NCBI GenBank assembly: GCA_947462765.1
Contig: CANHQK010000004.1
Coordinates: 11,206-75,205, forward strand
DNA: 64,000 nucleotides
DNA from: Bdellovibrionales bacterium
Lineage (GTDB): Bacteria > Bdellovibrionota > UBA1018 > CAIMNF01
Reading direction: 5' to 3'
The position numbers and the translations under genes were made by a program. Shown in pieces: positions 18,188 through 63,252 of the stretch (position 1 is its first letter; every line of letters starts with the position of its first letter). The notes under the pieces were generated by a model that saw only the letters and a list, made by a program, of their open reading frames with translations, was not told the DNA's origin and did not search any database.

Positions 18188-18218
18188 TAGACTCAGGTTG
18201 AACGGAAACGGGCTAAAA

Positions 18219-32610: not shown

Positions 32611-32622
32611 TGAAAAAGAAAC

Positions 32623-32650: not shown

Positions 32651-32736
32651 CTAAACCAAAACGGCAAGGATGCTGTCTGCACATCAAGGAACGTGTGCGG
32701 ATCTTAGGGAGAAGAAGAATATGAACGGAGGCTGAT

Positions 32737-37018: not shown

Positions 37019-37887
37019 GTGCGCTGATTCCCTCCTGGAAAAAGTGGCTGCTCACGGGGCTCGAAGAAGACGGGGCCGCTTTCGACTGGACTGCACGGTC
37101 GCTTGCCAAACTCCGACCCGACACCCAAGCCACCCAAGCAAGATTGGTAGCAAAGGCAAACGGAATCTGGGCTGCAGCCACAGGACTCCGGGCGCTCGAA
37201 CTGCTCAGTCGCGAGCTCGGATCCCCGCTCGAGATCGAGTCCTCGATCGAAGACGGGGCACGAATCCTCCCCGGCCAGACTCTTTGCACCTGGAAGGGCT
37301 CGGCCAGATCGATCGTGATCTTCGAACGGAGCTTCATCAACCTCGCCTCCTACACCTCGGGGATCGCCACCCAAACTCGGACCACTGTCGATCGAGTGAT
37401 GGCATCCGGAATGAAAAACCCCGTTCGCATCACGGCCACCCGCAAGACTCTTCCCGGCTATCGGGATCTCGCCGTCGAATCGACCCTGATCGGTGGCGCC
37501 CACCCCCACCGGTTCAATCTGAGCGGTGGTCTCTTGCTGAAAGAGAACCACATCGCCGCAGCTGGTGGAATCACCGCCGCAATCAGAAGCGCGCGGAGCA
37601 CCATTCCCCACCTGCTCAAGATCGAGATCGAGGTCCGCAATCTCGAAGAGCTCAAAGAAGCGATCTCAGCCGGTGCAGAAGTCATCATGCTCGATAATTT
37701 CAGTCCAGAACAGATCCGGACTGCCGTTCCGCTCAAGACGGAGGGCGTTTGTTTCGAGGCCTCGGGCGGCATCTCTCTTTCCAATCTGGATTCCTACCTG
37801 ATCGAAGGCCTCGATGTCATCTCGATCGGTGCCCTCACCCATTCAGTGAAGGCTCTCGACTTGTCCCTGCTCATGAGCGGGACTTGA
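37015..37887 (+). CDS. nadC: Nicotinate-nucleotide pyrophosphorylase (quinolinate phosphoribosyltransferase)
   Basis: QPRTase signatures TRKTLPGYRDLAVESTLIGGAHPHRFNLSGGLLLKENH and IMLDNFSPEQI...EASGGISLSNL. Proposed TTG start at 37015 overlaps the rph stop (TTGA); no in-frame ATG is nearby. The ORF-track version begins inside rph in another frame. Confidence 0.8.
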   Translation: MSALIPSWKKWLLTGLEEDGAAFDWTARSLAKLRPDTQATQARLVAKANGIWAAATGLRALELLSRELGSPLEIESSIEDGARILPGQTLCTWKGSARSIVIFERSFINLASYTSGIATQTRTTVDRVMASGMKNPVRITATRKTLPGYRDLAVESTLIGGAHPHRFNLSGGLLLKENHIAAAGGITAAIRSARSTIPHLLKIEIEVRNLEELKEAISAGAEVIMLDNFSPEQIRTAVPLKTEGVCFEASGGISLSNLDSYLIEGLDVISIGALTHSVKALDLSLLMSGT

Positions 37888-38587
37888 GATGCACTTCCTC
37901 GCTTAAGAGTCTGCGCTCTCCGGTCGCAGTCGAAAGGATCATTTCACCGAACTCTCCATATCCGATCACCCTGCCATGACCCTCCTCGCGGGTGATGGCA
38001 TCTTCGAATCGAACTGAGTCTCCCGGGCGGAACCAGGCCCAGTCTTCATAGGTTTTTTTCAGGACCCGTAAATAGGGTTCAAACTTCAGCTCCGCCAGCA
38101 AGCGGTCAAGAAAATCATCGGGGATTTCGGGAGGAAGAGCAAGACCGGTGAGGTCAGCCAAAGAGGTCGTGATGCGTCCTTGAACCTGGGGAGCCGACCT
38201 CAAATTCACTCCCACTCCGGCAATGACAATCCTTTGCACCTTCTCGCATAAAACCCCTGCGATTTTGGCCCCTGAGCCGGCATCAACCACGTCATTCGGC
38301 CACTTGATCCGGACCTGCTCGCGCGTGACCCCGTACTCCAACATCACGCGGGCCACCGAAACGCCGATCCATAAAGGAATCCACGTGAGCGGCAGCTGTC
38401 CGGGATGAAGGTACAGCGAAGCATGCAGGTTTCCGCTTTCGGCGATCCACGGCCTTCCCTGCCGGCCCAAACCCGCCGTCTGCACCGGAGACACCACGCA
38501 ATCGAGATGCTGGAACACTCCACCTTCGAGGACCTTCTCCTTCAGAAAGGCTTGCGTGCTCTCCACACTTTTCAATTGGATCTTCAT
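37871..38587 (-). CDS. birA: Biotin--[acetyl-CoA-carboxylase] ligase
   Basis: BirA signature GRQGRPW (GRGRRGRxW-type) and KWPNDV. 238 aa with no N-terminal HTH domain, so a group-I ligase. Start codon is 1 nt after the VWA gene stop. Confidence 0.88.
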   Translation of the reverse strand: MKIQLKSVESTQAFLKEKVLEGGVFQHLDCVVSPVQTAGLGRQGRPWIAESGNLHASLYLHPGQLPLTWIPLWIGVSVARVMLEYGVTREQVRIKWPNDVVDAGSGAKIAGVLCEKVQRIVIAGVGVNLRSAPQVQGRITTSLADLTGLALPPEIPDDFLDRLLAELKFEPYLRVLKKTYEDWAWFRPGDSVRFEDAITREEGHGRVIGYGEFGEMILSTATGERRLLSEEVHLKSRS

Positions 38588-38588
38588 A

Positions 38589-39989
38589 TTATTTTTTAGG
38601 AGGTAGGCACTGGAGCACCTGGATCGACTTCTCGTTCCGAACCGTGATCCCTTCGATATTGCATTTGTCGTTCACAAAAAACCGGTAGGCCCCGGTCTTC
38701 AAAACGAAGGGGAAGTTGGTGATATAATTTCCCAGCTCCTTCTCTCCCCCATCAAAAACATGAAAACCGACATTGGTCGGATAATTCACCTGAACGACTC
38801 CAATTCCATCAATAGTGATTTCATGTTTACCGCCCGGAACAATCTTGAATTTCTGCTCGATCTTCTCAAAAAAAGGATCCCCTGATATCCGGACATCATA
38901 AACACCCGACTTCACAATGGCCGGTTCGTCGCTAGAAAAACTTTGCACAACTTTTTTATCCTTGTTCAGGATCTCGACATCCAGGAGGCCCTTGAAAAAA
39001 TGCACGGTCATCTGCCCCGAGCCCGCCACACGGAGGGTCACTCGCTTTCCGGGCGGGATCTTGAACTCCTTGAATGAGTAGACCGGTTCCAACAGCACCT
39101 CGGCACTGTAAGTCCCGGGGGGTAGGCGGACTCCATACGATGAAATAAAATCCCGAACGTAGACTCGCTCGCCATTCTTGATTTCAAACAGCCTCACCGT
39201 GGCTTTCGGATCCGGACTCTCGACAAACAAGTTATTGCCGACCCGTTTACCCTGGGCATTGGTTGCCCCTCCCATCATATTGCTAATGTCGTCGAGGGAC
39301 TGCTGGAGCTGCTCCGGGGACTTCGCACCGAAGGTCTTTCCAAGACATCGCAACTTATCGAGATCTTTGGATTTTTCATCAAGTCCGATCCCCGTAACGA
39401 ACATCTCGAGATCGACGATCTTCTCTTGAATCGCCTTCTCGAGAATCTTGCAACTGTCCCCGCCGCAGGTCTCCTCTCCATCCGTATAAATCATCACCCG
39501 TTTGGGACCCGGGTAATTCTTCAGCTGTTCGATCGCCAGTTCAAGCGAGTCCGCGATCGGAGTCATCCCGAGTGGCGACAGTTGCTTCACAGTACTGTCT
39601 ATCTTAGTCAGATTTCGCTCTCCAACCTTGATAGCAAGATAAGTGTCACCACAATCCTGCTTCCGGCGGCTGCCGTAAACCACCATCCCGACCTCGGCCT
39701 TTTCACGCCACTGATAACGAAGGTATTCATTAAACAACTTCTTGGCATAAAACATCTTTGATTTGCGTCTATCGAGCAACTGTCCCATCGATCCGGAGCT
39801 GTCCAAAAGGATCACCACTCGCGGCTTTAACGCCTGTTCGAGATCCTCATCTGAGTATTCGATGCTCGTCTGGAGGTCCTTCAAATCCGGGATCTCGAGC
39901 TTGAATGGCGTCGGGGTAGGGCTGCTCCGCGCATCAGCCCTTTGAGCAAAAAGAAGCAGGAACATAAAGCCAACCAGAATCAGCCTCAT
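38589..39989 (-). CDS. Secreted von Willebrand factor A (VWA) domain protein with a C-terminal beta-rich region
   Basis: Signal peptide MRLILVGFMFLLLFAQRADA. MIDAS motif VVILLDSSGSMG (DxSxS) with downstream ...T.IADSL... and YTDGEE. The C-terminal ~230 aa have repeated beta-strand-like segments. Confidence 0.8.
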   Translation of the reverse strand: MRLILVGFMFLLLFAQRADARSSPTPTPFKLEIPDLKDLQTSIEYSDEDLEQALKPRVVILLDSSGSMGQLLDRRKSKMFYAKKLFNEYLRYQWREKAEVGMVVYGSRRKQDCGDTYLAIKVGERNLTKIDSTVKQLSPLGMTPIADSLELAIEQLKNYPGPKRVMIYTDGEETCGGDSCKILEKAIQEKIVDLEMFVTGIGLDEKSKDLDKLRCLGKTFGAKSPEQLQQSLDDISNMMGGATNAQGKRVGNNLFVESPDPKATVRLFEIKNGERVYVRDFISSYGVRLPPGTYSAEVLLEPVYSFKEFKIPPGKRVTLRVAGSGQMTVHFFKGLLDVEILNKDKKVVQSFSSDEPAIVKSGVYDVRISGDPFFEKIEQKFKIVPGGKHEITIDGIGVVQVNYPTNVGFHVFDGGEKELGNYITNFPFVLKTGAYRFFVNDKCNIEGITVRNEKSIQVLQCLPPKK

Positions 39990-41305
39990 TTCTTCTTCTT
40001 TCCGCCTGAAAACAGGCTTCTGATCGGATCTTCAATTCTGACTCCAACCACAAAACGGAAATCCCCCTCGCGCTCGGTCGCCCGCGTACCTTCCGGAAAA
40101 GATATCGGAACCGGGACCGACTCCAGGGTCACAGGTCCGGAAAAACGCAAATCATAACTCCGGAAACCATAAGACCCTTCGATGAACCAGCGCTTGAGCA
40201 AGGGAATAAAATCAATCCACGCGAGAGCTGTGGCACTCACGCGCACAGCCATTCCCGTAGACCCCGGAGAACTGGTTCCTCGTGATACGCCCTGGTCGGC
40301 AGCTGTGAGGATCGGAAAGTAGCTCGCATCCAGGGTCAGTCCCTGAAACGCGAACGCAAAAAGGGATTTTTTCTCCGGCTTCCAAATCAGCGGCACAAAT
40401 GAATACCTGGCTCGGATACCCAACCCCATTCCGCTCACCTCGGTAGTGAGCAGGTTCTCGTCGGCATTGTCGGTCGAAAAACGATCACTCAAAGAATCGA
40501 TACGCCCCGAAATCTCGAGCTTTTTACCAAGTATTGGCGGGAATCGGTAATGGAAGCCGAGCACTGAAACCGCCTCCTCGGAGGTCACCACATTTGAATA
40601 ATAGGTTGAGGTCGGAAAGCGTCCCCCGTGGGAATCGGAAGTGATTCCAATTGGATAAAAATCAGAAAAATACGCCCAATGCTGATTTGAAAATCGGTAC
40701 TGGGTCGTGCGCTTCTCTAGATTTGCAACAGTGGTGCTCGTAGTGTCCAAGTCGCCCAAAAGGAGGCCCATGCCAAATTCAGCATATCCGGGACGGTCAT
40801 TGACACGATCTGAGGACTCCTCTTCAGGTAATAAAAAGTCATTCTGACCCTTCACATCCCCGTTTGCGAGCGAATTGGGGTCCGCCAAGGGAGCGCCAAA
40901 ATCGCCCTCGATCGGGTATTTGATGACCGTGTCTCTATCCAAATCGACTTGCAGCTCCAAGACTCCTGACTTGGGATTTCGCGTCTCCGAAATGACACGC
41001 CCGGTTGCAATCACCTCAATTCTTTGGCCCTTCTTTCGAAAAAACATAACGGGAGCACCGTCAACAAAAGAGTGAGCTCCAGGAAGCGTCAACGATACGA
41101 CCCCCTCTTCCTCACGAACTACTCGCATGGCCGACTTCATGAGCTCTTGCAGTTTGGGCGCCAAAAAAGAAACCCCCTGGGGCTTCGGCGAAGGGGATGG
41201 TTCAACCTCAGCAGCCCTCGCCATTAAGGATGAGCCGAGCCCCGTGGCTAAGCCACCAAAGAGAACAAGCCCGGCAAGGAGGAGCATTTTTTTGACTGAT
41301 TCCAT
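39986..41305 (-). CDS. Putative outer-membrane beta-barrel protein (first gene of the OMP-VWA-birA operon)
   Basis: Signal peptide MESVKKMLLLAGLVLFGGLATG. The C-terminal 250 aa show many amphipathic beta-strand-like segments ending in aromatics (VSVLGFHYRF, GLGIRARYSF, LFAFAFQGLTLDASYF, FIEGSYGFRSYDLRF, DFRFVVGVRIE). ATGA overlap with the VWA gene. Confidence 0.55.
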   Translation of the reverse strand: MESVKKMLLLAGLVLFGGLATGLGSSLMARAAEVEPSPSPKPQGVSFLAPKLQELMKSAMRVVREEEGVVSLTLPGAHSFVDGAPVMFFRKKGQRIEVIATGRVISETRNPKSGVLELQVDLDRDTVIKYPIEGDFGAPLADPNSLANGDVKGQNDFLLPEEESSDRVNDRPGYAEFGMGLLLGDLDTTSTTVANLEKRTTQYRFSNQHWAYFSDFYPIGITSDSHGGRFPTSTYYSNVVTSEEAVSVLGFHYRFPPILGKKLEISGRIDSLSDRFSTDNADENLLTTEVSGMGLGIRARYSFVPLIWKPEKKSLFAFAFQGLTLDASYFPILTAADQGVSRGTSSPGSTGMAVRVSATALAWIDFIPLLKRWFIEGSYGFRSYDLRFSGPVTLESVPVPISFPEGTRATEREGDFRFVVGVRIEDPIRSLFSGGKKKK

Positions 41306-41533
41306 TCAAGTAATTTTCAATTATTATTATTGAAAACAGTGTATCTCCCGGTACTTGGGTTTGCACTGATTTAATTGATAAAGCACGAACCGCATGGCCA
41401 ACGTATCGCATGAAACTCAAGTGTTCTTGAACTTATTCCGATCCCACTCTAAGCCTACGTCTTTCGCAGGCAGGGTCCGAAGGGACACATTGACGCTACC
41501 CACGCAGGTTTTTACACTGATGATTGGGGTTGC
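41306..41533. promoter_or_regulatory. Divergent intergenic control region between the OMP-VWA-birA operon (-) and the giant-lipoprotein operon (+)
   Basis: 228 bp that are AT-rich relative to the genome. They contain the inverted repeat TTTTCAAT-N7-ATTGAAAA at 41314-41336 and a lone TTGCAC / TTGATT cluster. No CDS. Confidence 0.5.
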
Positions 41534-44500
41534 GTGAAAGTTTGGGGGAATCCAGTGCCATTTCGCGGCGTAGGAAAATCACTATTACAGCTTTCGCTCA
41601 GGGGATTCCTCACGGGGATTCTTTTGGCAGGATGCTCGGACCTTGGGTTCCAAGGTGGCGTGATTCCGACGAACTTCAATGGCATCAAGGTGATTGAAGC
41701 CGTATCGCCCGAGGCTTTTCAGATGACCTGGGATCCTTATCCTGGGGCTACTCAGTACCGCGTCTACATGCCAGAACTCAATGAACCCATCGCTCGCCCC
41801 GGGTTCACCACACTCATCACCCGGCCTCCGGGAGGAGTGAACAGTAACGATGGAACCTATTCTTTCTCCGTTACGGCCGTAGATCCGACCACAGGATTGG
41901 AGCAGGGAACGCGTAGCAATTATGTTTCCGCCAAGCTCCTGCCTCGCTTCAACTTCAAGGAAGACGGTGACATTCGCGCACTAGACATGATTCCTTCCAC
42001 CCGTCACGCCGTTCGCGTGGCCTGGACCGCTTACCCTAAGGTGAACTACCAAGTTTACATCGGTGAGCGCTCCCCTTCTGGCCTTGTTGCTTACAACCTG
42101 GATGCTTCGTCCGGCTCGGTACTCGGTGACGGTTCGATCGAGATCGAGAACCTAAAAGAAGGTCGGGAATACTGCGCATTCGTGATCGCGACCTATGCGG
42201 ACTCCACCCGGGATGGCCCGAACGGTCAGCCCTTTACCGGCCCGGTAGCGTCTTTGGTCGGAACACCGTCTACCTTCAACACCAGCGTGGTAGGCACCTC
42301 TCAGAAGTGTGTGCGCACCAAGTCGGACCCTGCCTTTACGAGCACGGTAGAGCAAAGCAAGGTTTACGCTTCCAAGGCCACCCTTTCTAACAAACCCTCC
42401 TTTTTTGCCGACGTCGCAGGGGATACGACCTCGGATGGACAGGGATCTGTTCGGGTTTCCATTTACCGCATGGATGTCGCAACGGGCAATGGAACCTACA
42501 TAGGTGCGTTCAATGGTACTGGTAAGATTGATGCGGCCGAACCCCTTCCTCCCGGCCGTCACACCTTCAAAGCGATCTTTGAAAAACTCGGTGGCAATTC
42601 AACCGCTCAGAAAGAAAAGGGCGTGATTGTAGGTCCGACCGGGATTGAGCCCTCCGAACCCGTGGGAAATCCAGCAGACCGCCCATTTGTTTACGTCCGC
42701 GGCCTGGGCGCAGCTCCCACAGACGAAGGATATTACCCCGAGAAACAGCAAGGGGGGCTCGGGTCACAGCGCATCGGTGCTGCCGTTGCCATGGGTGATT
42801 TCAATTGTGACGGTCGATATGATGTGGCGGTCGGAATGCCCGAATACGTGATCACCTTGCCCGCGCCGGACAACCGCCCGGCAAACTTGGGTAAAGTCAT
42901 GGTCTATTACAACATCGCCTCGAGTGCCTCTTCCACGGCCCAGGGGGTTCGTTCGCAAGAGATTATTTTCAATCTTTCCGACAGAACCACCACCTTCCCA
43001 GGTGGCCGTGATCTGAGGCTTGGAACGCGGCTCCATGTCGGGAACTACAATAGCGACAATCAGGCAACGCACAATCCGCCAGGATACAACGATCCGACAC
43101 TGAATAAACAGTTCCAGTGCGACGACCTTGTAATCGGCTCGGGTTATGGACCCAGTATCTTGATGTATGGCTCTCGCGACACGAGTGGATCCAACGGAGG
43201 CTTGGTCTACAGTGGTCCCAAAGTGTTCATGGAGAACACCCAGTCGTGTAACCCGATTGATAATCGCTGTGACCCGACAATTTACTTCTACTCCAACCCC
43301 GCAGTCTCGCTCTGCCGCAGTTATACAAATGGCGACTTTAACGGGGATGGGTTTGAGGACTTGGCCATCGGAAGTGGTTCCGGTGCCGGGATTTGGGTGC
43401 TCCGTGGGAGTGAGTATGGGCTCATTCCGCCGAAAGCCCGTCGATTCTCCTCTGACCAAACTGCCTATACCTTTACTGGGGGAGATACTTTTTCAACCGA
43501 CGATGGGCCGGGTGGACGGATTAACTTCCCGTATGTTCACTCGAACACGAGCAGATTCTTCGCCCCATCGAGTTTCAGCAATGGATTCGCACCCTCTGCC
43601 ACTGGCTGGAGCAACACCAATAATTTCGGAGCCTCACTCGGGGCAATCCGTAATGCATTTTACGACCCGGACAACAACAGGTCTAAATCGATTCTGCTAA
43701 TCGGGAGTCCAGACACTCCCAGCACAGGCGCCGCCGGGACGACCCAAAGCAGAGGCCGCGTGTTCGCTTGCGTCCTCAGATCATTGACCGGGGATCGTCC
43801 TTCACCCCTGACCGGAACTTTCAGCAACTCGTTCAACAATGATTCAATGGAAAATCAGGCGTGGGATTGCAATCATGCGATCAATCCTCCCATTCGCTCA
43901 GGAGTCCAGCCCTTCACATCAATCGCCTCGGCCTCAGGGTTCGGCTCAGCAATGGCGACCCTCGATAACCCTCTGAGATACCGTGTCGCGCCTTTTTGGG
44001 AAGGAGGCTCCCAAGAATCGTGTCCTGCGATTGCTGGGGGTGTGGAAGCTCCTCGAGCTCACGGAAACTGCTCCTCTAGCTCGTTGAACTTGGGGATCCC
44101 CGGGGGAGTCGCCATTGGGGCCCCGGGTAGCAATCAAGTTTTCGTTTACTACGGTGTGGCCGTACCCGGAGCGATGGGGACTCGAAACACCCAAGGCTCG
44201 GCCCGCAATGCCTACATCGGCCAGTACTTCGATCGGCTACTGGATGGTTCCACCAATACAGTTCACAATACGACCTCAGGAAGCACCAGTGCCCCGGCCT
44301 ATGCATCAGAAGTAACAACCTCTGATCCATGCACCGCCACCAACTCAAACACGGAAGCATGCTACATCCAATTGATCACCCAACCCTCGACACCATCCGG
44401 GTCTTTCGGCCTGACCTTGTCCAGCCTTAGAGGAAACATCATCTCAAACGAAGGAGACAGTCCCCAGGACTCAACCCTCGGGGTATCCGCACCCTACCGC

Positions 44501-46924
44501 TCAGTCAACATCGGCGGGCTTTCTTATTCTGAAGTGGGAACTGTTTACCTTTACAGACAAGCTTCGAGATTCTCAAGCGATCCGATCATCATTGGGCCCA
44601 CCGCGAATACGGCCCAACAGCGCCCCCGACAGTCGACTGGGTTCTCAATGACCCAAGTCTCGCCAATCGACTACAGTGGCCCCCCCAACAACATGATTCG
44701 GTTCGGACTGGGTGGAATCGCGGCAGGACCCCTGGAAGCACCGATTCCAGGATCTGGGTACTCTTCGAATTCTGATCTGATTATCGGAGTCCCTGGGCAC
44801 GTTAAGGTCACCGATACGAACGGGGCTCCAATCCCTCCCGTTTTTGATAATGGTGCCTTTACGACTCTTTTTTCTCACGCCGGAACGTACAATCGGTTTC
44901 GAGTTGGACAGTCTGGGATCTCCGGATGGAACCTCACTGACACCATTTTTGAACCATCGGGATCCATCTCAGGTCAAGAATCTAACCTGCGCTTCCATCA
45001 AGCGGTTTCAGTGGGAGACATTCTCGATCTTGATGGCCTCTCTGACGTGGCTGTCCGCATAGCCCGTGGGAGCACCCGCAGTCGCGTGAGGATTTATAGG
45101 GGCAATCCTTGTGCGGACTGGCGCGGCCAATCGTGTCGAGTGACCCTCAAGCGTTCTACCAATCAATTCGTAGAGTTGAATGTCAGCAGCGATGACACCG
45201 CTGGTTTCCGGATCATTCCTACCGGCGTGGTGTCCGGCTCACTTGGTTCATTGTTTCTGGTGGGAGAGTCAGCCTCTTATCTTTTCTTCGCAGGGGCTGG
45301 TGGAATCAACCAAGGCGTTCCATCGGAGGTTTCCAACCCAGGGAGCCCCAGAAAGTTCACCACCACAAACCTTCCGAACTACCTGCCCTTTTCGAACTCC
45401 TCATTTTATAACGCAGAAACAACTGATGTAACCACATCTCTCGATCCGGGACGGAGTTTTGCTGTCGCGGACTTTAATGGTGACGGCAAGATGGACTTGG
45501 CCTTCGGCCAAACCGTTACAACTCTTGAAAATAACGGGATTTCTGACAACCGCCAAAGCCCGAACTGCCCGGGGGCGGGGAACTCGTGCCTCTCATCCTC
45601 CACCAACACCAATGCGGCGTCCCGCGTGGGGCAGGGACGAGTTTACGTGATGTACGGAGGCGGGGCAAACGGTTTTTATCCACAAGCTGATTCGAACTTC
45701 GGATACCCGATTCGGGCCGAGTACACTGGGCAAGACTTCGGAACCTACGGCTTCACAGGCTTCTCATCCACCCGCGCGGACAACAACACACTGGGAGCCC
45801 CCTGCACCACTCAAGGACTGTGTCCCAAGATTCAAGTGTTTGCCGAGGCAGACACCACCACTTTTGGCAGTGTCTTGAGCGCCATTCCTATGGGCACCTG
45901 CGCAGGGAAGCCGGTATCCGCCCTCGCGGTTCGAGCCCAGTATTCAGACCGGGCCTCAGTCTTCATTTACAAACCAAGGTGCATTCTTGATGAAACCAAC
46001 CTTTCGGGGCTGGGTAATTACGGGGTCACGAATGATCTGAATACGATCGAGATCAAATCCAACGACGTCGGACTGAACGCCGCCGTGAGCACCGGTTTCG
46101 GAACCTCCTTTGCCGGTTTTTCGAAACTCATGGAGCGTCCCGCCAATGATTCGCCCCTCATGGGGCATATTGTGATCACAGACCAGGGCTCTCGCCGCTT
46201 GTTCATCCTGCCTATGGTGTCGAGTGGGGCGGAAAAGGGCAAGGTTCTCCTGAGCGACAATCGAATGTACCCCCCTGTCACGAGCGGGGGACAAGGCACA
46301 TTTCTCCCCACTGCCTCCGGCACCTACGAAAGCTTTGGCGGCAAAACAATCGACTACAGCTCCTCTGACTTTTTATCGGGTCACTCGACCGGGTTGGACT
46401 CTGGGTTCGGCAGCTCCCTCGTCAATCTCGGGGACTTAAACGGTGACGATTACGAAGACCTTGGCATGAACCTCTTCCGAATGAACAAGAAAGAAACCAG
46501 CAGGAGCTACCTCTACCAGGGAGGGGTTTTGGTTATTTTTGGCGGTAGAATGGGAGCACAAACCCACCAGACCGAATCGGGCGTCACCACACAACTCGAA
46601 CCGAAGGCAGACGCGGAATGCTTCTTGAGGCAGGAAGTGATCGACGGGCAGCCTCGCCGGATCACCCGCTGTAATCCAACCCTGGTTTTCGCGCCCCAGC
46701 CGGCCGGCTCGACCCGGATGGGCCAGTACGAATATTCCTCTTTAACCAAGTTTTCGGTTTTGGAAACGGGGGTCCGCGACAGCACGACTCGAGTGTGTCA
46801 GCCGGGCTCGTCCAATGAATGTCTCGGGTCTTGGATTTTCGGAGTGCCCGGCCGGGACTCCACCGAGACCACTCCGGGAGCAAAGCCCATTCTTCAAGGG
46901 GGAGCCTTTTATGTTCTACCGTAA
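41534..46924 (+). CDS. Giant surface lipoprotein 1 (~1796 aa) with FG-GAP / integrin-alpha-like Ca-binding repeats
   Basis: Lipobox GILLAGCSD. Repeated motifs GDFNCDGRYDVAVG, GDFNGDGFEDLAIG, DLDGLSDVAVR, ADFNGDGKMDLAFG and GDLNGDDYEDLGMN (the D-x-N/D-x-D-G-x-x-D loops of FG-GAP/VCBS repeats). G/S/T/N/D-rich with few Lys. GTG start. Confidence 0.8.
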   Translation: MKVWGNPVPFRGVGKSLLQLSLRGFLTGILLAGCSDLGFQGGVIPTNFNGIKVIEAVSPEAFQMTWDPYPGATQYRVYMPELNEPIARPGFTTLITRPPGGVNSNDGTYSFSVTAVDPTTGLEQGTRSNYVSAKLLPRFNFKEDGDIRALDMIPSTRHAVRVAWTAYPKVNYQVYIGERSPSGLVAYNLDASSGSVLGDGSIEIENLKEGREYCAFVIATYADSTRDGPNGQPFTGPVASLVGTPSTFNTSVVGTSQKCVRTKSDPAFTSTVEQSKVYASKATLSNKPSFFADVAGDTTSDGQGSVRVSIYRMDVATGNGTYIGAFNGTGKIDAAEPLPPGRHTFKAIFEKLGGNSTAQKEKGVIVGPTGIEPSEPVGNPADRPFVYVRGLGAAPTDEGYYPEKQQGGLGSQRIGAAVAMGDFNCDGRYDVAVGMPEYVITLPAPDNRPANLGKVMVYYNIASSASSTAQGVRSQEIIFNLSDRTTTFPGGRDLRLGTRLHVGNYNSDNQATHNPPGYNDPTLNKQFQCDDLVIGSGYGPSILMYGSRDTSGSNGGLVYSGPKVFMENTQSCNPIDNRCDPTIYFYSNPAVSLCRSYTNGDFNGDGFEDLAIGSGSGAGIWVLRGSEYGLIPPKARRFSSDQTAYTFTGGDTFSTDDGPGGRINFPYVHSNTSRFFAPSSFSNGFAPSATGWSNTNNFGASLGAIRNAFYDPDNNRSKSILLIGSPDTPSTGAAGTTQSRGRVFACVLRSLTGDRPSPLTGTFSNSFNNDSMENQAWDCNHAINPPIRSGVQPFTSIASASGFGSAMATLDNPLRYRVAPFWEGGSQESCPAIAGGVEAPRAHGNCSSSSLNLGIPGGVAIGAPGSNQVFVYYGVAVPGAMGTRNTQGSARNAYIGQYFDRLLDGSTNTVHNTTSGSTSAPAYASEVTTSDPCTATNSNTEACYIQLITQPSTPSGSFGLTLSSLRGNIISNEGDSPQDSTLGVSAPYRSVNIGGLSYSEVGTVYLYRQASRFSSDPIIIGPTANTAQQRPRQSTGFSMTQVSPIDYSGPPNNMIRFGLGGIAAGPLEAPIPGSGYSSNSDLIIGVPGHVKVTDTNGAPIPPVFDNGAFTTLFSHAGTYNRFRVGQSGISGWNLTDTIFEPSGSISGQESNLRFHQAVSVGDILDLDGLSDVAVRIARGSTRSRVRIYRGNPCADWRGQSCRVTLKRSTNQFVELNVSSDDTAGFRIIPTGVVSGSLGSLFLVGESASYLFFAGAGGINQGVPSEVSNPGSPRKFTTTNLPNYLPFSNSSFYNAETTDVTTSLDPGRSFAVADFNGDGKMDLAFGQTVTTLENNGISDNRQSPNCPGAGNSCLSSSTNTNAASRVGQGRVYVMYGGGANGFYPQADSNFGYPIRAEYTGQDFGTYGFTGFSSTRADNNTLGAPCTTQGLCPKIQVFAEADTTTFGSVLSAIPMGTCAGKPVSALAVRAQYSDRASVFIYKPRCILDETNLSGLGNYGVTNDLNTIEIKSNDVGLNAAVSTGFGTSFAGFSKLMERPANDSPLMGHIVITDQGSRRLFILPMVSSGAEKGKVLLSDNRMYPPVTSGGQGTFLPTASGTYESFGGKTIDYSSSDFLSGHSTGLDSGFGSSLVNLGDLNGDDYEDLGMNLFRMNKKETSRSYLYQGGVLVIFGGRMGAQTHQTESGVTTQLEPKADAECFLRQEVIDGQPRRITRCNPTLVFAPQPAGSTRMGQYEYSSLTKFSVLETGVRDSTTRVCQPGSSNECLGSWIFGVPGRDSTETTPGAKPILQGGAFYVLP

Positions 46925-49900
46925 AACCTCTGCTCGAAGGCTAACCATTCTTTTGCTGCCGCTACTTGCCTCCTGTTCAGACGGCCTCCTCGGAGGAAAC
47001 ATCACCGCCCAATTCGCGGGGATCAATAAGGCTACCGTAATGGGGCCTACCTCCGTAAGCATCGACTGGAAACTTGACTCTAAGTGCTCGAGCTATGAGA
47101 TTTATGCTTTGACCGCAAGCACCACCAGTAGGCTACGTCTTGCGTCGGTTCCACCCGTGATCTTGAACGCACAAGAAGATCAGATTCAGAGCGAAACTTC
47201 TTATAGTTTTGCCGTAGGCTGCAACCGCGAAGGAAAACTCACCGGGCTTGATGTGAGCACAAACGTCAGCACCTGGAGGGAGTTCGACGGGGTCATCAGC
47301 AATCCCGAATCCTTGGAAGGCGGGGCTTTCCGCTTCACCTGGGATTACCCGCAGGACCAGGGCACGCGCTACCTCGTGTATGCCATAGAATCACTCATTC
47401 CAGGAGCTCCCACTCAGCTGACTCGGAAAAACTCCTCAAACTTCCGCATCGGATATCAAGACGAACCGATTTGCACCACCTTCAATAACCGGATCACACT
47501 CGGGCCAGGTGGGGAGTGCAATCCGGGGCCTTCGAAACTTAAACCAGGTAGCCTCTATCAGTTTCATGTAGTAGCCCAGTACCCCGACAACAACTACTCA
47601 AACAATTTAGCGTCCAACGCCAAGAGTAAACTGATCGATCCGAGTTTCGAAGCGCCGAATTGCAACCTGACCCAACTGGGTCTAGGGCCTGAGGCTGGAA
47701 GCACCTACCTTTATTTGCGATGTTCCGACAACGGGGCCGCAAACTCCTGTGGATTTAACAATATTACGGCCCGAGCCTATCAAGGCATAGGGGGAGTCAG
47801 AAACCCCATCTCTGGTGAACTTACTCTCAATTCATCACAAAGCAACATTCTGCAGATCCAAGCCACCCCCGGCCTTGACCCAACAAACGAGCGCTTGGTC
47901 AAGAACCTCGAGGTGGAATACACCTGCCGACGCCCCGGACAGCCGATCGAGAGAATGGTGGTACGGTACGACAATTCCAATGGCCGCCGTGAGCCACTCA
48001 TGAAATATGGCAATTCCGGCCCAGGTCGGAACTACGAAACCGCGCCTGAGCAATCGGTTTGGTCCGACCCACGATCAGCCAACCCTACCCTGCTTTCTCC
48101 GAGTCGAATGGGAGAAAGTCTGGCTGTTGGAGACTTCGATTGTGATGGAAATCCGGATCTCGCTGTGGGCTTGCCAAATATCACCTACAACCAAGCTCCC
48201 TACTTCAATGAGAACCCGTCATCCGGCGCGGTCAAGATCTACTATAATTATTCGACATCCGCAAACGGCACCATTACCGCTGCTAACGGGATCCAAATGC
48301 TCACCTTTGGCGATCTGTTAACAGGATCTCGTTTCGGTGCGAGCCTTTCAGCTGGAAATATCAATAAAGACGTTGCCAAGTCAGTAGTCGACAACTTTGA
48401 GAGCTACTATTCTTGTGACGATCTGATTATCGGCGCACCGGGCAACGCGAATGAAAGCCTCGGTCGAGCTTTCATTTTTTACGGGCAACGCCAACGCTTT
48501 CCGAATTATCCAGTGAAAGCGGCCGATCTTCCTAAAAACAGCCCGACCTGCAGCAGCTCTTCTTTGATCCAGCAAAACTGCACTCCCGTTGAGCTCATCA
48601 CGAGTGATTATGCAGAAAAATTTAGAGTTCACCCCGACACTCACAACATCAACAATACGACCTGGTGGGGGAACAGGGGTTACTTCGGACATAGCGTTGC
48701 TTACCTTCGAGACTTTAATGCTGATGGATATGGAGACGTGGCCGTTTCAGACCCGAACTGCTCCTGGGATGGCTATGAGACTTACAATGGCTTCGGATTT
48801 ACCAACAACGGGGGGAATTCAATTTTGGATGTAGGCTGTGTCTACGTCTATTTTGGTGGAAAAGAGGGGATACAAACGGTCGACGTGGGTGTTCCCGTCC
48901 ACCCGAATCTGGAACAGTTCTTCCCGGGAAACATGGTGTCCTCGCCCTACATCAAAGTCTATCCACCTTTCATCCAGGCCGGCATGCATTTCGGGACGAG
49001 TATCGCGGCCGGGGGAGATATCGATGGGAGACTGCCTGTACCCATCCCTGTTTCTCAGTCACAAATAGCACTGGCCAATGGCTATGATTTTGTCGTGGGT
49101 GCGCCGGATTTTTCCTATGCCTCGCCAGTGTCAAACAGCGGGGGTCAGCTGCCCGCTACGCAATCAATGAATTATTTGGCCTTGAATGTTGAAGACCCAT
49201 ATGTCAGGCAAGCTGACGCAAACTATTCGACCACGACTACTTCCAGAAAAAACACACCTCCGATCAATGGAGCTTGGACTAACCAACAATGGTCGGCTGG
49301 GGCGGCCCCCCTGCCTCCCGCAGGAGACAATGCCACATCGGGCCTACGGAATTCCACAGGCATCGTATTCGCTTATTTCGGAAGAAGCGCTCTGCAGGAC
49401 TACAACGTAACGGTCAACGCGGGGGCGAATTGGTTTCCAGAGGGCAATGGCGCTGGCACAATCAGCTTACCCGGCGGGAACAACTTCAAGAGTCTTTTAG
49501 ACCTTTTTTCAGGGAGCATCCGTGATCGCCAGGGACATCGGGGTCACTTGGCGCTCGCCAGCTACGGGGCTTCCGACCTTGCTCAAATCAGGCCAACACG
49601 CTCATTTTTCAATTGCGGAACCCGGGGCGCGCCGACGCTTCCTGCAAATCACCCCACGCACGGCCAAAGGATTCATCACTATTCCTGTCTCGCAGGCCGG
49701 AATAATTTTTCAGCCATCTTCCCGCACATCAAGCACTCTGACCCTGCTGTGTCGGGATTCGGTTCGAGCTTGAGCATTGCAGGAACCGAAGACTCAAATC
49801 TGATTGCTCAGTACCACTTGAGTGAATTTCTCGGAAGCTCTAGTTTTGCAGAGACTTCTGCCGAGAACGGCGTGCTTCAATTAATCTACAATGCCCAAGG

Positions 49901-52900
49901 ACAGGTGCATCAACGTATCAGGGGCCACAACATGTGGGAGGTGGCTGTCAGGAATTTCAGCGGTGATAGCACCATCGCAAATCTGGCTTCAAACAATTTG
50001 TCATCTGGTTTGACGATCGGATCCCCCGTGAATGCGGCGAAGGTCCGCCGGTCGGCACTAAATGAGTTCATTTCCATGGATGGGGCAACCGCTCCAACGG
50101 GTGGCTCTCGGCCTCAAATGGACCTGAATCGAGATGGATACGGAGACGTAGTCGTCGGCAGCAGACTCAGTCCCAATACTTCCATCGGACGATCAACCCT
50201 GTCCATTCATTACGGGAATTTCGCCGGTGACTTCTCCTACGCCTATGGCCGTTACCTCAATGACCCGTCTTCCTCACCCTCGACAAGCAACTCCTCGTGC
50301 TTGGCGCAACGTGGCTCATCCATCACCACGCCCGGTCCTTCAGCGAACAATGCCTCGCTCACTAACGCTGCAACTGCCTTCTCCACCTTCCAAGCCCAAT
50401 CCAAAGTGGTTTTTGACTCGAAGACCATGACGGTTTCGGCCGAGTTCCCGAACCTACGGCTACCGAGCAATGCCGGCATCGTTTATTTTGTTGATGGAAC
50501 AGACGCAACGACCTCCGTCACAAGCCGTAACGGCGCCTCAACGGCAGGTTCATCTTGTAAACCGCAGATTAGGACTTTGTTGGGGTATCAGCCATCATCC
50601 CTGGCATCGGCGGACGTCAATGGTGATGGGATGTCCGACATGGTTGCTGGCTATGCCGAATCGAACGGTCGCCAAGGCTCAACCTCCGTCCTTTACGGAA
50701 ACCCCTTCAATGGTGTAGGCGCCGAGGGTGTGATCAACACCTCTTCTCCGCAAGCACTCTTCGGCTCATCCGTAGCCGCTTCCTCATGGAAGTTCCTTCT
50801 GGGCACAAACGAAAGACGTAATCACGAGCACCTGCGCCGGGACGTCTGGGTGGGTGCCCGTGGGCGTAATTCCGGTGAAGGGGCTGTATTCGCCCATTCT
50901 TCTTCAAGCACCATTACTGCTGATGTCCCACTCAACACAGCCGTGGCGGGCTCGGAAAATCCATTTACCGACAGTTCCAACTCACCCAATCGTCTTTATG
51001 CGGAAACTTCCCGCATCATTGGTGACATCAATGGGGATGGATTTGACGAAATCTTGGTTCCAGTCAAAAGAGTGGATCTGAATGGTGCCGAATATTTTGA
51101 CGGAATGATCTATTTCGGCTCATCCATGGGTCCTGTCACCAACTCCTTTTGCAGAGCTAGAATATCCGAAATGAGGACCCAACCCACGAATGGCCAGACT
51201 CTTTCTGCAAGTGAGTGTTTTGGTTCAGTCGGTGGCTCAATCTCGGCGTATATAAATGGGACTCTACTGCGTCTGCCACAGTATTTGGAAAGGCCTACCG
51301 GGGTTGGCCCGAATTGGATTCGTCACAGCTTCCGGGCTGGTGATGTCAACAAAGACGGCCGTGAGGATCTGGTATTGTACGACCAAGGCACCTCATACAA
51401 CCAACTCTACCTGTTCTTCGGGTCGGAGTCCGGCATTATCAACGGCGAACCATTGTGGGGAGTCAGTGCCAACCGAAATCCCCAAAAGGTTGCTACCAAT
51501 GTTGCCAGGCCACAATCGGATTATGAGCTCACGACCAATATGGATTGGCAGGATCGTCACTCTAAGGCTGTAGCCTACGGTGATTTCAATGCTGATGGTT
51601 ATGCGGACTTTGCACTCGGGCAGCCCTCAGCTAGCAGTCCAGCCCTTAGTGCGACATCGGCTGACGGTAACGGCAGATGGGACTGCTCGAATACCTACTA
51701 TGATAATAACCTAACCTACACTGGTCTTTGTGAAGGGACCGGGAACGGGTCGGCACTGGATGATTCTGGTCATGTGGTGGTATTTTACGGGAGTAGTGGC
51801 GGTTACCAGACCCCCTCCCGCTTGGCGACGCCGATTGACGCCCAGGCCCCAGCGACCTGTGGCGATTATCTCACGGGCTGCACAAGTGCTGCAAACTCTC
51901 CGTTTCGTGAGGTTTACGGAAGCTTGTATTTCAGTAACTCGACCTATCGCCTCCGATGGAGCGAGACCGGCACACCCGCTGCCGACGAGGGCGAGGCAAC
52001 ATGTAATCCAGACGCTGAGTTGAACAATGGACCAAGAAACTGTGGTAGCAGAGCCACCGTAATCCGTAGTCCGTTTTTTCACAACTTCGCCGGGGGCGCG
52101 CTCTACCTGAGGGACCAGTTCTTTGGTACCAGCCTCGCGGCAGGGGATTTCAATGGAGATGGCATCACAGATCTTGCCGTCGGAGCCCCTCGCCACCAGC
52201 TGGATCGGTTCGACCTCCCAGGATGGGCGAACGAGATATCGCTGTATGGATTGACCTCCGGCGGTGGACAAGACACCTCTCAACGGGGTTCTGTATTCTT
52301 GTACTACGGATCAAGAGGGGGTGTGGTAGCTCCCCGCGCCCAGGACTACTATGGTGATACCGGAATGGGACTGAGTGGTGCCAACCTGACTCCGGTAGGA
52401 TCCCGTGGCCTGTTTGCACTTTCTCCCGAGCCTTGGAATTCTTCCAGCGGAGTCACCCAGCCCACGCTTGATGGTACTGGGTCAGGGCGCAAATTCGGCA
52501 TGAACATGGCTGTAGGTGATTTCAACGGGGACTCACTCCACGACCTGGTGGTGAATTCATCGCGCGGCCAACTCTATGTGTACTACGGTCCTCTGTGCAA
52601 TGTGGACAACTCGCGCGCCTATGTCCGAGCCATGTATGCAAATGCGGGCCTCAGTATGCCAGCATTCAACGAGCCTGGGACTCCCGTATTGTCTGATCCG
52701 GGGCCGTGCCCAACCTTTAACCTAAACAACTACACCAATCGGGCATCGATAGCCGTAGAGAATCGTACCAAAAGACAAATTCCACAGACGATCGCCCTTC
52801 CTGGCATTAACCCCAACCTCGATATGAAATTCGGAAGTGTCTTGTTAGCAAGTCTTCCATCCAAGGGGGGCAATATAAACGGAGATCCGGGAATTCAGCC

Positions 52901-62298: not shown

Positions 62299-63252
62299 AT
62301 GGGCAAAAGAATGATCCGAGTTCTCGTCCTCACCTTGCTTACCGCACTGTCGGTCGTGGTTTTCTTCCGCCTCCGCACGCGCCCTGACACCCCACCCCCG
62401 CCCTCAGTGCAGAAAATTTTTCAAGACAGGCAAGCCCAAGCAAGGGCCATCCTCCTCACCCCGCTTGCAAACCTGGTTCAGACACGGGACTGGCCCGCAC
62501 TGAAGGCGCGGAGCGGTGAGCCCGGATTCGGACAGTCTCTTGCCGAAGTGGTCCGAGCCATGCATGTTGAACTCAAATTCCAGGAATGGACTCCGCAAGA
62601 CCACGCCCAACTCACTGAAATGCTTCTTGTCGGCCTTTCCGGAGCTTCAGAGCCAGAGCTATTGTCCATCATTCCTCAGATTGAACGCCTTCCCTCTCCA
62701 GTCAGCGACTCTCCCGCGGCATTGAGACTCAGAAGGTTTCTTGACCCGGGACAACCCGAGGTTCTGCGGGTGTTCGCCTTCAAGAAACTGGTCATTCACG
62801 AGTCCAAACCCGAAGCATCCGACATCGATCGTGGAATCCGGGCCCTCCTACCCGCGCCCAAAACAAAAGGTGGGATCAATCCGTTTTTGCTCGTAGACGA
62901 GACCAGGAATGACCAGGTCAAAAAGACTCTTCTTTCAAAGCTAGCGGCCAGCTGGGCAAAAATCGATCGCTCGAGGGCTCCTACCACCCTCTACCTTCTT
63001 TGTCGCAACATCCAGAGCATTCCCCAGTTCTACTCGAAAGGTTGGTCCCTCACGCTCCAGTCCTTACAATCCAAAGACTCACTTAGCATCGAATATGGGC
63101 TCAGGAGCTTGGTCTACCTCCATCAGTTTAAAAAACTGCCCCCTGCTGAGGTTGAACGGGTCGTCAGTATTTTGACATCGATTCCCACGCCACGACGCAG
63201 TCCGTTCATCCAAGAAAAATCCAATGAAATCATTGAGATGCTACAACGCTAA
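62299..63252 (+). CDS. Membrane-anchored hypothetical protein (317 aa)
   Basis: N-terminal signal-anchor IRVLVLTLLTALSVVVFF, then a soluble domain. Sits 21 nt downstream of giant gene 3 on the same strand. Confidence 0.5.
   Translation: MGKRMIRVLVLTLLTALSVVVFFRLRTRPDTPPPPSVQKIFQDRQAQARAILLTPLANLVQTRDWPALKARSGEPGFGQSLAEVVRAMHVELKFQEWTPQDHAQLTEMLLVGLSGASEPELLSIIPQIERLPSPVSDSPAALRLRRFLDPGQPEVLRVFAFKKLVIHESKPEASDIDRGIRALLPAPKTKGGINPFLLVDETRNDQVKKTLLSKLAASWAKIDRSRAPTTLYLLCRNIQSIPQFYSKGWSLTLQSLQSKDSLSIEYGLRSLVYLHQFKKLPPAEVERVVSILTSIPTPRRSPFIQEKSNEIIEMLQR

What the first reader, a model, noticed from the sequence alone, without database searches (positions are those of the whole stretch)
38589..46924. 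Integrin-like logic? A secreted VWA/MIDAS protein encoded back-to-back with FG-GAP propeller giants
In metazoan integrins the alpha subunit contributes an FG-GAP beta-propeller and the beta subunit contributes a VWA-like (betaI) MIDAS domain that docks onto the propeller. Here a signal-peptide VWA protein (MIDAS DSSGS intact) and a beta-barrel-like OMP are encoded divergently from the FG-GAP giants, and both share one control region. This could be coincidence. Alternatively it could be a bacterial propeller/MIDAS surface complex anchored by the OMP. birA at the end of the operon looks like a passenger.
Basis: inference. Interest (0 to 1): 0.6.

Follow-up and report, generated by a model that had tools for sequence, protein, structure and literature searches.

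The report
Conserved stator-linked surface adhesin gene cluster
The secreted metal-binding (VWA) protein, its outer-membrane barrel partner and the giant FG-GAP lipoproteins are real and stay together across predatory Bdellovibrio-type bacteria, as part of a larger uncharacterised cluster that also encodes a flagellar-type MotA/MotB proton motor and a membrane-anchored FliG-like protein.

Summary
The region holds a signal-peptide VWA protein with an invariant MIDAS, a 439-aa protein modelled as a 10-stranded outer-membrane barrel, birA, and, 228 bp away on the other strand, giant FG-GAP lipoproteins.

The barrel, VWA protein and giants stay clustered across about 20 Bdellovibrionota genomes in at least six gene orders. 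These include B. bacteriovorus HD100, where Bd3027 is the anchored gene number and the neighbouring numbers are inferred. There is no Bat-type context.

The integrin analogy is only partly supported. The VWA domain is a generic extracellular A-domain, not a betaI type. The FG-GAP repeats are irregularly spaced, and docking could not be tested.

The main new result is that the module is larger. An identical public contig shows that the giants' same-strand gene run continues past the window end into a membrane-anchored FliG-like protein and MotA/MotB. A TPR lipoprotein and two small secreted beta-rich proteins follow. All of these co-cluster with the barrel and VWA genes in Bdellovibrio, where the stator pair is motA2B2.

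My best reading is an uncharacterised, lineage-specific, envelope-spanning adhesion or motility-type complex linked to a stator. I found no literature on it. birA is a clade-specific passenger.

The parts
37871..38587 (-). birA, a group-I biotin-protein ligase (238 aa, no HTH domain). It is the last gene of the barrel-VWA-birA unit and a clade-specific passenger.
   Evidence: TIGR00121 scores 90.9 bits against a cutoff of 83.1, with Pfam BPL_LplA_LipB. It follows the VWA gene in all window-clade loci where the sequence extends past it, and it is absent from that position in Bdellovibrio.
38589..39989 (-). Secreted VWA/MIDAS protein of 466 aa: signal peptide, VWA domain (about residues 55-238), then a beta-strand-rich C-terminal region (about 250-462) that looks like a series of beta-sandwich units.
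39986..41305 (-). Outer-membrane protein of 439 aa: signal peptide, small periplasmic beta domain (48-140), disordered linker, 10-strand barrel (174-425) and a Lys-rich tail.
41306..41533 (.). Divergent intergenic region between the barrel operon and the giants' operon.
   Evidence: The equivalent gaps in seven relatives measure 119-235 bp.
41484..41496 (+). Conserved 13-mer GACACATTGACGC, which contains a -35-like TTGACG. A -10-like TACACT lies at 41513-41518.
   Evidence: The exact 13-mer is present in 5 of 8 window-clade intergenic regions. The promoter-like site was found. The function of the motif is not tested.
41534..46924 (+). G1, a giant lipoprotein (1796 aa; lipobox LLAGC) with fibronectin-type-III-like N-terminal stretches (by eye) and 4 FG-GAP calcium-loop repeats.
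   Evidence: Pfam FG-GAP E 1.4e-13. Repeats lie at residues 422, 601, 1313 and 1634. Orthologues are 30-50% identical in the window clade, and G1-like genes occur in L087 and L088. The true start may be the GTG at 41555.
46911..53324 (+). G2, a giant lipoprotein (2137 aa from the start at 46911; lipobox LLASC) with 10 FG-GAP calcium-loop repeats. It is orthologous to HD100 Bd3027.
   Evidence: Pfam FG-GAP E 9e-45. All 17 strong homologues that carry a source name or a fetched locus are Bdellovibrionota. It matches the Bd3027 C-terminal half at 28% identity, E 1e-55. It overlaps G1 by 14 nt.
53369..62278 (+). G3, a giant lipoprotein (2969-2974 aa; lipobox LLGSC) with no Pfam domain. It is a distant homologue of the HD100 2058-aa protein (Bd3026, number inferred).
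   Evidence: No Pfam family was found. The N-terminal 200 aa are collinear with Bd3026 at E 5e-5 and match the L087 G3-like gene at E 4e-8.
62299..63252 (+). P317, a 317-aa protein with an N-terminal transmembrane segment and no known family.
   Evidence: No similarity to the HD100 407-aa protein (Bd3023, number inferred) was found.
63296..64000 (+). 5' part of a 334-aa bitopic protein (signal peptide, periplasmic domain, TM 169-187). Its N-terminal domain resembles that of the FliG-like protein encoded next.
   Evidence: L091 is 1702/1702 identical to the window tail. Beyond the window end it shows the 334-aa gene, a FliG-like gene (628 aa), MotA, MotB, a 220-aa gene (-), a TPR lipoprotein, a 206-aa gene and a gene of more than 910 aa. 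tblastn against the HD100 FliG-like N-terminus gives E 7e-7.

Best explanation
The VWA/MIDAS protein, its dedicated outer-membrane barrel and the three giant lipoproteins (two with FG-GAP repeats) are components of one conserved gene cluster that I found only in Bdellovibrionota. In B. bacteriovorus HD100 it spans roughly Bd3015 to Bd3027.

The cluster also encodes:
- a flagellar-type MotA/MotB stator pair (motA2B2 in HD100);
- a bitopic inner-membrane protein with cytoplasmic FliG middle and C-terminal domains;
- a paralogous 334-aa bitopic protein;
- a TPR lipoprotein;
- two small secreted beta-rich proteins.

**Most likely mechanism (inferred, not shown).** The products form an envelope-spanning surface adhesion or motility-type assembly.
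- The giants are calcium-binding, disulfide-rich lipoproteins at the outer membrane or cell surface.
- The barrel anchors or organises them through its periplasmic N-terminal domain.
- The VWA protein uses its MIDAS to bind an acidic residue of a partner. That partner could be a giant's propeller, as in integrins, or an external ligand such as the prey surface.
- The MotAB and FliG-like pair couples the assembly to proton-motive force.

**Shown here.** Domain content, predicted localisation signals, predicted folds of the VWA protein and the barrel, and conserved clustering despite rearrangement.

**Inferred.** Physical association, surface exposure, energy coupling and biological role.
For: - **Clustering across rearrangements.** At least six different gene orders keep the same gene families together:
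  - window clade: G2<G1< | >barrel>VWA>birA;
  - HD100, L017, L019, L020, L024: G2>G3>barrel>VWA>Bd3023 ... MotA>MotB <o220 >TPR>o206>334>FliG-like;
  - L018, L021: barrel>VWA>TPR>MotA>MotB;
  - L015: <FliG-like | >barrel>VWA ... MotA>MotB;
  - L088: <VWA<o220 | >FliG-like>G1>G2>G3>barrel;
  - L087: FliG-like>G1>G2>G3 ... <MotB<MotA.
- **Operon-like run in the window genome.** G1 to MotB is one same-strand run with gaps of -14 to +44 nt.
- **Narrow families with matching distribution.** The VWA orthologue set drops sharply from E 2e-90 to E 3e-23. The barrel family has 59 representatives in 1.84e9 proteins. The named strong G2 homologues are all Bdellovibrionota.
- **Localisation signals cover every envelope layer**.
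- **Folds.** MIDAS VWA and a 10-strand barrel.
- **FliG-like protein.** FliG_M (27.8 bits) and FliG_C (28.8 bits) are above the Pfam cutoffs. The match to T. maritima FliG MC has E 1.4e-7.
- **MotA and MotB.** Both match flagellar stator models, and MotB has the plug and OmpA-like domains.
- **Literature.** motA2 does not complement loss of motA3 even when upregulated (PMC11323537). Epibiotic predators lack motAB2 but keep motAB3 (PMC11870529).
Against: - There is no direct evidence of physical interaction, co-expression or function.
- All examples lie in one phylum, so shared ancestry contributes to the linkage.
- There are two exceptions. L015 has barrel, VWA, FliG-like and MotAB genes but no FG-GAP giant in 16 kb. 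L087 has the giants, FliG-like and MotAB genes but no barrel or VWA gene in 25 kb.
- By my own reading of the alignment against remembered E. coli FliG numbering, the charged torque-helix positions are only partly kept in the FliG-like protein.
- The title of Morehouse et al. 2011 (cited in PMC10225642; full text not held) states that all three MotAB pairs contribute to the flagellum.
- The giants were not structurally modelled.
Confidence: 0.55

Rival explanations
1. Strict integrin analogy. The VWA domain docks through its MIDAS face onto an FG-GAP propeller of G1 or G2. The result is a bacterial propeller/A-domain head held at the surface by the barrel.
For: - An intact, invariant MIDAS.
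- FG-GAP calcium-loop repeats in G1 and G2.
- Conserved clustering.
- A weak sequence match of one G2 repeat to the integrin alphaV propeller, E 4e-4.
Against: - Repeat spacing of 80-712 aa does not fit a compact 7-blade propeller.
- L015 keeps the barrel and VWA genes without an adjacent FG-GAP giant.
- The interface was never tested.
Confidence: 0.17
2. Flagellum-associated module. MotAB, the FliG-like protein, the TPR lipoprotein and the small secreted beta-rich proteins would be lineage-specific flagellar motor or stator-scaffold parts. The giants, VWA protein and barrel would be components of the membrane sheath that, from my own knowledge, covers the Bdellovibrio flagellum, or of its base.
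For: - MotA and MotB match flagellar stator models, and FliG domains are present.
- Three flagellin genes lie 5-10 kb upstream in the window clade.
- The Morehouse 2011 title assigns all three stator pairs to the flagellum (reference list).
Against: - The FliG-like protein lacks the N-terminal domain that binds the MS ring. It is instead membrane-anchored with a periplasmic domain.
- motA2 cannot replace motA3.
- Flagellated epibiotic predators lack motAB2.
- From my own knowledge, no flagellar system is known to use 2000-3000-aa FG-GAP lipoproteins.
Confidence: 0.18
3. Independent neighbours. The barrel-VWA pair and the giants would be separate surface proteins kept adjacent only by shared ancestry, with no joint function.
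For: - All loci belong to one phylum.
- The exceptions L015 and L087 show that the parts can be separated.
Against: - The flanking genes differ completely between clades: birA, nadC and rph in one, Bd3023 and motAB in the other.
- The order and orientation of the core families change at least six times, yet they remain clustered.
- Both families are extremely narrow and have matching distribution.
Confidence: 0.09
4. A BatA/BatB-type aerotolerance operon unrelated to the giants.
For: - A weak NCBIfam BatA hit, E 3.5e-4.
- BatB is among the structural neighbours of the VWA domain.
- A TPR protein is encoded in the wider cluster.
Against: - The BatA score is 19.7 bits against a cutoff of 380.
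- The VWA protein has a cleavable signal peptide and no transmembrane anchor.
- No MoxR ATPase or DUF58 gene was found among the window ORFs scanned or in related loci.
Confidence: 0.01

Closest known systems
Metazoan integrin alpha/beta head (FG-GAP propeller plus betaI VWA domain)
   Same: - FG-GAP calcium-loop repeats (DxDxDGxxD) and a MIDAS-bearing VWA domain are encoded together.
- Both products are extracytoplasmic and cysteine-rich.
   Different: - The VWA domain is generic or alphaI-like, not betaI.
- The repeats are irregularly spaced within 1800-2200-aa lipoproteins.
- There are no transmembrane or cytoplasmic tails.
- No interface has been shown.
- The genes are linked to a MotAB stator.
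Myxococcus xanthus Agl-Glt gliding apparatus with the adhesins CglB (VWA) and CglD (beta-integrin-like) (PMC9946355; bioRxiv 10.1101/2023.10.19.562135)
   Same: Both combine a proton-channel motor, TPR and outer-membrane barrel proteins, a VWA/MIDAS adhesin and a large calcium-binding cysteine-rich lipoprotein. Both occur in predatory bacteria formerly grouped as deltaproteobacteria.
   Different: - The parts are not homologous. NCBIfam CglB scores 15.7 bits against a cutoff of 200.
- The VWA protein is not a lipoprotein.
- The motor is a flagellar-type MotAB with a FliG-like partner, rather than the TolQR-type AglRQS motor (own knowledge).
- No Glt-type families turned up in the Pfam or NCBIfam scans of the cluster proteins.
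B. bacteriovorus MIDAS adhesins Bd0875 and Bd1483 (PMC11003981)
   Same: - MIDAS proteins from the same phylum.
- A DxSxS motif that is needed for function in Bd0875.
- A role at the moving predator-prey junction.
   Different: [quoted passage not shown]
- The Bd3024 family has an N-terminal VWA domain followed by a beta-strand-rich C-terminal region, and no lipobox.
- It is not among the four MIDAS proteins named in the part of that paper I read, and a text search for 'Bd302' found nothing.
PilY1 type IV pilus tip adhesins (own knowledge; PMC9109919 appeared in the literature search but was not read)
   Same: A VWA domain combined with a calcium-binding beta-propeller, in an adhesin mounted on a motor-driven surface apparatus.
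   Different: - In PilY1 both domains lie in one polypeptide, and the propeller is not of the FG-GAP type.
- No pilus genes are present in this cluster.
Flagellar stator-rotor pair MotAB-FliG
   Same: - MotA_ExbB, MotB_plug and OmpA-like domains.
- FliG_M and FliG_C domains above the Pfam cutoffs.
   Different: - The FliG-like protein is a 577-628-aa bitopic membrane protein with a periplasmic domain. It scores 37 bits against the fliG equivalog cutoff of 226.7.
- The gene neighbours are giant lipoproteins, not flagellar genes.
Salmonella SPI-4 giant adhesin SiiE with the MotAB-like proteins SiiAB (own knowledge, not tested here)
   Same: A giant calcium-binding surface adhesin encoded with a MotAB-like proton channel.
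   Different: - SiiE is exported by a type I secretion system, and no T1SS genes are present here.
- The giants here are lipoproteins.

Membership tests
Integrin-type propeller/A-domain pair | MIDAS motif DxSxS...T...D in the VWA domain | tested here: met
   D63, S65, S67, T143 and D170 are invariant in 46 orthologues.
Integrin-type propeller/A-domain pair | betaI-type VWA domain (specificity-determining loop, hybrid-domain insertion, ADMIDAS and SyMBS sites) | tested here: not met
   - The domain is a plain VWA of about 185 aa.
- No integrin beta chain appears in the PDB profile search at E<=10.
- None appears in the Foldseek top 50.
Integrin-type propeller/A-domain pair | Seven-bladed FG-GAP beta-propeller | tested here: inconclusive
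   - Pfam FG-GAP is significant.
- There are 4 (G1) and 10 (G2) calcium-loop repeats, but they lie 80-712 aa apart.
Integrin-type propeller/A-domain pair | Physical interface between the VWA domain and the propeller | not testable with these tools
   No multimer prediction is available. Only conserved gene clustering supports an association.
BatA/BatB aerotolerance operon | Membrane-anchored VWA proteins next to a MoxR ATPase and a DUF58 protein | tested here: not met
   - NCBIfam BatA scores 19.7 bits against a cutoff of 380.
- The protein has a signal peptide only.
- No MoxR or DUF58 gene was found among the window ORFs scanned or in relatives.
CglB gliding adhesin / Glt complex | CglB equivalog score, lipobox, and Agl/Glt neighbours | tested here: not met
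   - NCBIfam gliding_CglB scores 15.7 bits against a cutoff of 200.
- The protein has no lipobox.
- The neighbours are MotAB and a FliG-like gene, not Agl or Glt genes.
10-stranded outer-membrane barrels (OmpT/OpcA fold) | 10-strand transmembrane beta-barrel fold | tested here: met
10-stranded outer-membrane barrels (OmpT/OpcA fold) | Sequence membership of the omptin or OpcA families | tested here: not met
Flagellar stator MotA/MotB (genes just beyond the window end) | MotA_ExbB channel, plus MotB plug and OmpA-like peptidoglycan-binding domain | tested here: met
   - Pfam gives 86.2, 63.5 and 58.0 bits, all above the cutoffs.
- The best NCBIfam matches are PomA/MotA and MotD/MotB, although both fall below the equivalog cutoffs.
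FliG rotor protein | FliG_M and FliG_C domains | tested here: met
   - FliG_M scores 27.8 bits (cutoff 25) and FliG_C scores 28.8 bits (cutoff 23.3).
- The match to PDB 3ajc has E 1.4e-7 over 205 residues.
FliG rotor protein | Soluble protein of about 330 aa with an N-terminal domain that binds the MS ring; fliG equivalog score | tested here: not met
   - The protein is 628 aa with a signal peptide, a periplasmic domain and a transmembrane segment at 172-190.
- TIGR00207 scores 37 bits against a cutoff of 226.7.
BirA biotin-protein ligase | birA_ligase domain above cutoff | tested here: met
   TIGR00121 scores 90.9 bits against a cutoff of 83.1.

The most novel reading that the evidence does not exclude
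Bdellovibrionota carry a previously unrecognised, non-flagellar machine. In it, a MotA/MotB stator works on a membrane-tethered FliG paralogue to move or tension an outer-membrane assembly. That assembly consists of integrin-like giant FG-GAP lipoproteins, a dedicated barrel and a MIDAS VWA protein. It would be a new kind of envelope-spanning adhesion or traction device, possibly used for surface movement or prey entry.
Probability: 0.25. Interest if true: 0.85.

Novelty: new variant of a known kind. Interest (0 to 1): 0.6.

Why it matters
From my own knowledge, how Bdellovibrio generates force and adhesion while entering prey, and what its extra stator pairs are for, are open questions. This cluster links one of those pairs (motA2B2) to a FliG-like membrane protein and to a set of giant, integrin-like surface proteins and a MIDAS protein. 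None of these has been studied, and all of them are present in the genetically tractable strain HD100, so the idea can be tested directly by deletion, tagging and cryo-ET.

It would also add a third independent case, after metazoan integrins and Myxococcus CglB/CglD, in which A-domains and calcium-binding repeat proteins are combined for force-bearing adhesion.

Tried and rejected
- **Bat operon and CglB membership.** Both were rejected on family scores and gene context.
- **Literature on Bd3015-3028.** The searches found nothing on Bdellovibrio in main texts. A search for FliG-like or non-flagellar MotA systems found nothing relevant.
- **Karunker 2013 supplements.** None of the queried locus tags was found in the held text.
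- **Morehouse 2011.** The full text is not held.
- **P317 against Bd3023.** No similarity was found.
- **G1 against PDB sequences.** There were no hits. G2 gave only a single-repeat match to integrin alphaV.
- **Exact look-up of the G2 product.** It failed. The look-up of P317 succeeded and extended the window.
- **afdb50 fold library.** It was unavailable.
- **Sigma-70 and terminator scans.** The counts were not above chance. Only the site that coincides with the conserved 13-mer was kept.
- **FliG torque-helix residues.** I compared them by eye in the alignment, and the result was inconclusive.
Full report
**1. Observation**

- On the minus strand there are three tightly coupled genes. The first is a 439-aa secreted protein (39986-41305). 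The second is a 466-aa secreted VWA protein (38589-39989), which overlaps the first by 4 nt. The third is birA (37871-38587), which starts 1 nt after the VWA stop codon.
- The VWA protein passes the Pfam VWA_2 and VWA cutoffs. birA passes TIGR00121. The 439-aa protein matches no family.
- After a 228-bp gap, the plus strand carries G1 (1796 aa), G2 (2137 aa from its likely start at 46911) and G3 (about 2970 aa). A 317-aa protein follows.
- G1 and G2 have significant FG-GAP hits. G3 has no Pfam hit.
- All three giants have lipoboxes, so they are lipoproteins. With Ser or Thr at position +2, the E. coli sorting rule would send them to the outer membrane. That rule is my own knowledge and may not hold in this phylum.

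**2. What the two small proteins are**

- An alignment of 46 orthologues shows that the whole MIDAS (D63, S65, S67, T143, D170) and six cysteines are invariant.
- The AlphaFold2 model (pLDDT 82) has a VWA domain at about residues 55-238. A beta-strand-rich C-terminal region that looks like a series of beta-sandwich units follows it.
- A profile search of PDB sequences finds ITIH4, alpha2delta and CMG2, but no integrin beta chain, even at E<=10.
- The 439-aa protein was modelled at pLDDT 77. It has a small N-terminal beta domain, a disordered linker and a 10-strand barrel.
- A profile search of 1.84 billion representatives finds only 59 relatives. This is a dedicated, lineage-specific barrel and not a general porin.

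**3. Taxonomy and co-occurrence**

- The VWA orthologues with source names are Bdellovibrionales MAGs or Bdellovibrio species, at 38-91% identity across the set. After them, E-values drop from 2e-90 to 3e-23, and the weaker hits share only the VWA domain.
- A scan of one genome per GTDB species gave 20 orthologous loci, all from Bdellovibrionota except one MAG labelled only "Proteobacteria".
- I mapped all cluster proteins onto these loci, and onto loci fetched through exact-protein look-ups, to build the order table.
- The barrel gene lies directly upstream of the VWA gene in every locus with enough sequence, with one exception. In L088 the VWA gene sits at one end of the cluster and the barrel gene at the other.
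- FG-GAP giants flank the pair in all 14 genomes that have several kb of upstream sequence.
- In the window's clade the giants are divergent, which gives the shared intergenic region of 119-235 bp.
- In Bdellovibrio the order is co-directional: G2-like, G3-like, barrel, VWA.
- There are two exceptions. L015 has no giant within 16 kb. L087 has no barrel or VWA gene within 25 kb.
- The HD100 genes could be numbered because the 1738-aa protein is listed as Bd3027 in a proteomics supplement. The numbers of the neighbouring genes (Bd3015-Bd3026) are my inference from gene order, anchored by motA2/motB2 = Bd3021/Bd3020.
The third, a Bat operon, is excluded by scores and context.

**4. The cluster is larger than the finding**

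- An exact look-up of P317 returned a 241-kb ENA contig that is identical to the window over the last 1702 bases.
- Beyond the window end the same strand continues with five genes:
  - a 334-aa bitopic protein, whose 5' part lies at 63296-64000;
  - a 628-aa protein with a signal peptide, a periplasmic domain, one transmembrane helix and cytoplasmic FliG_M and FliG_C domains, both above the Pfam cutoffs, with E 1.4e-7 to T. maritima FliG;
  - MotA;
  - MotB, with its plug and OmpA-like domains;
  - then a TPR lipoprotein and two small secreted beta-rich proteins.
- Gaps from G1 to MotB range from -14 to +44 nt, which suggests a single long operon.
- Every one of these families is also clustered with the barrel and VWA genes in Bdellovibrio species, in several different orders.
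- In HD100 the stator pair is motA2B2 (Bd3021/Bd3020).
- The literature treats that pair as a stand-alone flagellar stator. The same paper reports that motA2 does not compensate for loss of motA3, even when upregulated.
- A preprint reports that epibiotic predators lack motAB1 and motAB2 but keep motAB3.
- I found no paper that discusses Bd3015-Bd3028. In the parts I read, the study of Bdellovibrio MIDAS adhesins names Bd0875, Bd1483, Bd0767 and Bd3132, and a text search for 'Bd302' found nothing.

**5. Mechanism**

- Shown here: domain content, export signals for every envelope layer, the folds of two proteins, and clustering that survives repeated rearrangement.
- Inferred: that the products assemble into an envelope-spanning complex of the following kind.
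  - The giants form a calcium-binding surface layer or adhesin.
  - The barrel anchors them.
  - The VWA MIDAS binds a partner or an external ligand.
  - The MotAB and FliG-like pair supplies energy or mechanical coupling.
- The closest functional analogue is the Myxococcus Agl-Glt system with its CglB and CglD adhesins. The parts are not homologous, however.
- The strict integrin analogy stays possible but is weakened by two results. The VWA domain is generic, and the FG-GAP repeats (4 in G1, 10 in G2) are irregularly spaced.
- A flagellum or sheath-related role is the main rival.

**6. Control region**

- Five of the eight window-clade intergenic regions share the exact 13-mer GACACATTGACGC (41484-41496).
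- The 13-mer contains the -35-like hexamer of the only promoter-like site in front of G1.
- An AAATCAG element on the barrel side recurs in four regions.
- This fits a pair of conserved divergent promoters. It does not show co-regulation.

**7. Verdict**

The functional linkage looks real, the integrin-like docking is untested, and the VWA domain is not betaI-like.
- The locus belongs to an uncharacterised cluster that I found only in Bdellovibrionota. The cluster is linked to a stator and is present in a tractable model organism.
- I rate it as a new variant of a known kind, namely motor-linked envelope adhesin systems, with an interest score of 0.6.

Noticed in passing
window 30648-33570 (+): Three tandem flagellin genes (290, 300 and 277 aa) lie 5-10 kb from the cluster. 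The same arrangement occurs in the related MAG loci L004 and L006.
   Followed up: partly
window 39986-41305 (-), C-terminus: The barrel protein ends with a short helix and a conserved Lys-rich tail (...SLFSGGKKKK). It lacks the aromatic C-terminal beta-signal that is usual for outer-membrane proteins.
   Followed up: no
window 41484-41518 (+): The conserved 13-mer GACACATTGACGC overlaps a TTGACG-N17-TACACT promoter-like site only about 15 nt before the annotated G1 start. The true G1 start may therefore be the GTG at 41555, preceded by GGGGG.
   Followed up: partly
window 37871-38587 (-): birA is a short group-I ligase without a repressor domain and is translationally coupled to the VWA gene. 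It holds this position in all window-clade loci that extend past the VWA gene, but not in Bdellovibrio.
   Followed up: yes
L091 7485-8147 (-) and 9155-9775 (+), just beyond the window end: Two small secreted beta-rich proteins (220 and 206 aa, no Pfam hit) are conserved throughout the cluster. They look like small outer-membrane barrels.
   Followed up: partly
L091 9826-12555 (+): A further large secreted protein of more than 910 aa, with no Pfam hit, follows the cluster in the window genome. No counterpart was seen in the Bdellovibrio loci.
   Followed up: no
window 20026-20655 (-) and 21752-22354 (-): A PilZ-domain protein and a separate 200-aa MotA/TolQ/ExbB-family protein lie about 20 kb upstream. 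They are probably unrelated to the cluster.
   Followed up: no
L015 6212-13020: In this Bdellovibrionales MAG, three other ORFs (507, 477 and 1187 aa) lie between the VWA gene and MotA. None matched the FG-GAP giants at the thresholds used, and no FG-GAP giant is adjacent. They might replace the giants.
   Followed up: no
window 18165-19658 (+): A 497-aa protein with an N-terminal GYF_2 domain and no other recognised domain.
   Followed up: no
HD100 Bd3027 (L003 1-2583): Bd3027 was detected with a single peptide in a proteomics supplement of the Bd0875 study (PMC11003981). This is weak evidence that the protein is expressed.
   Followed up: no
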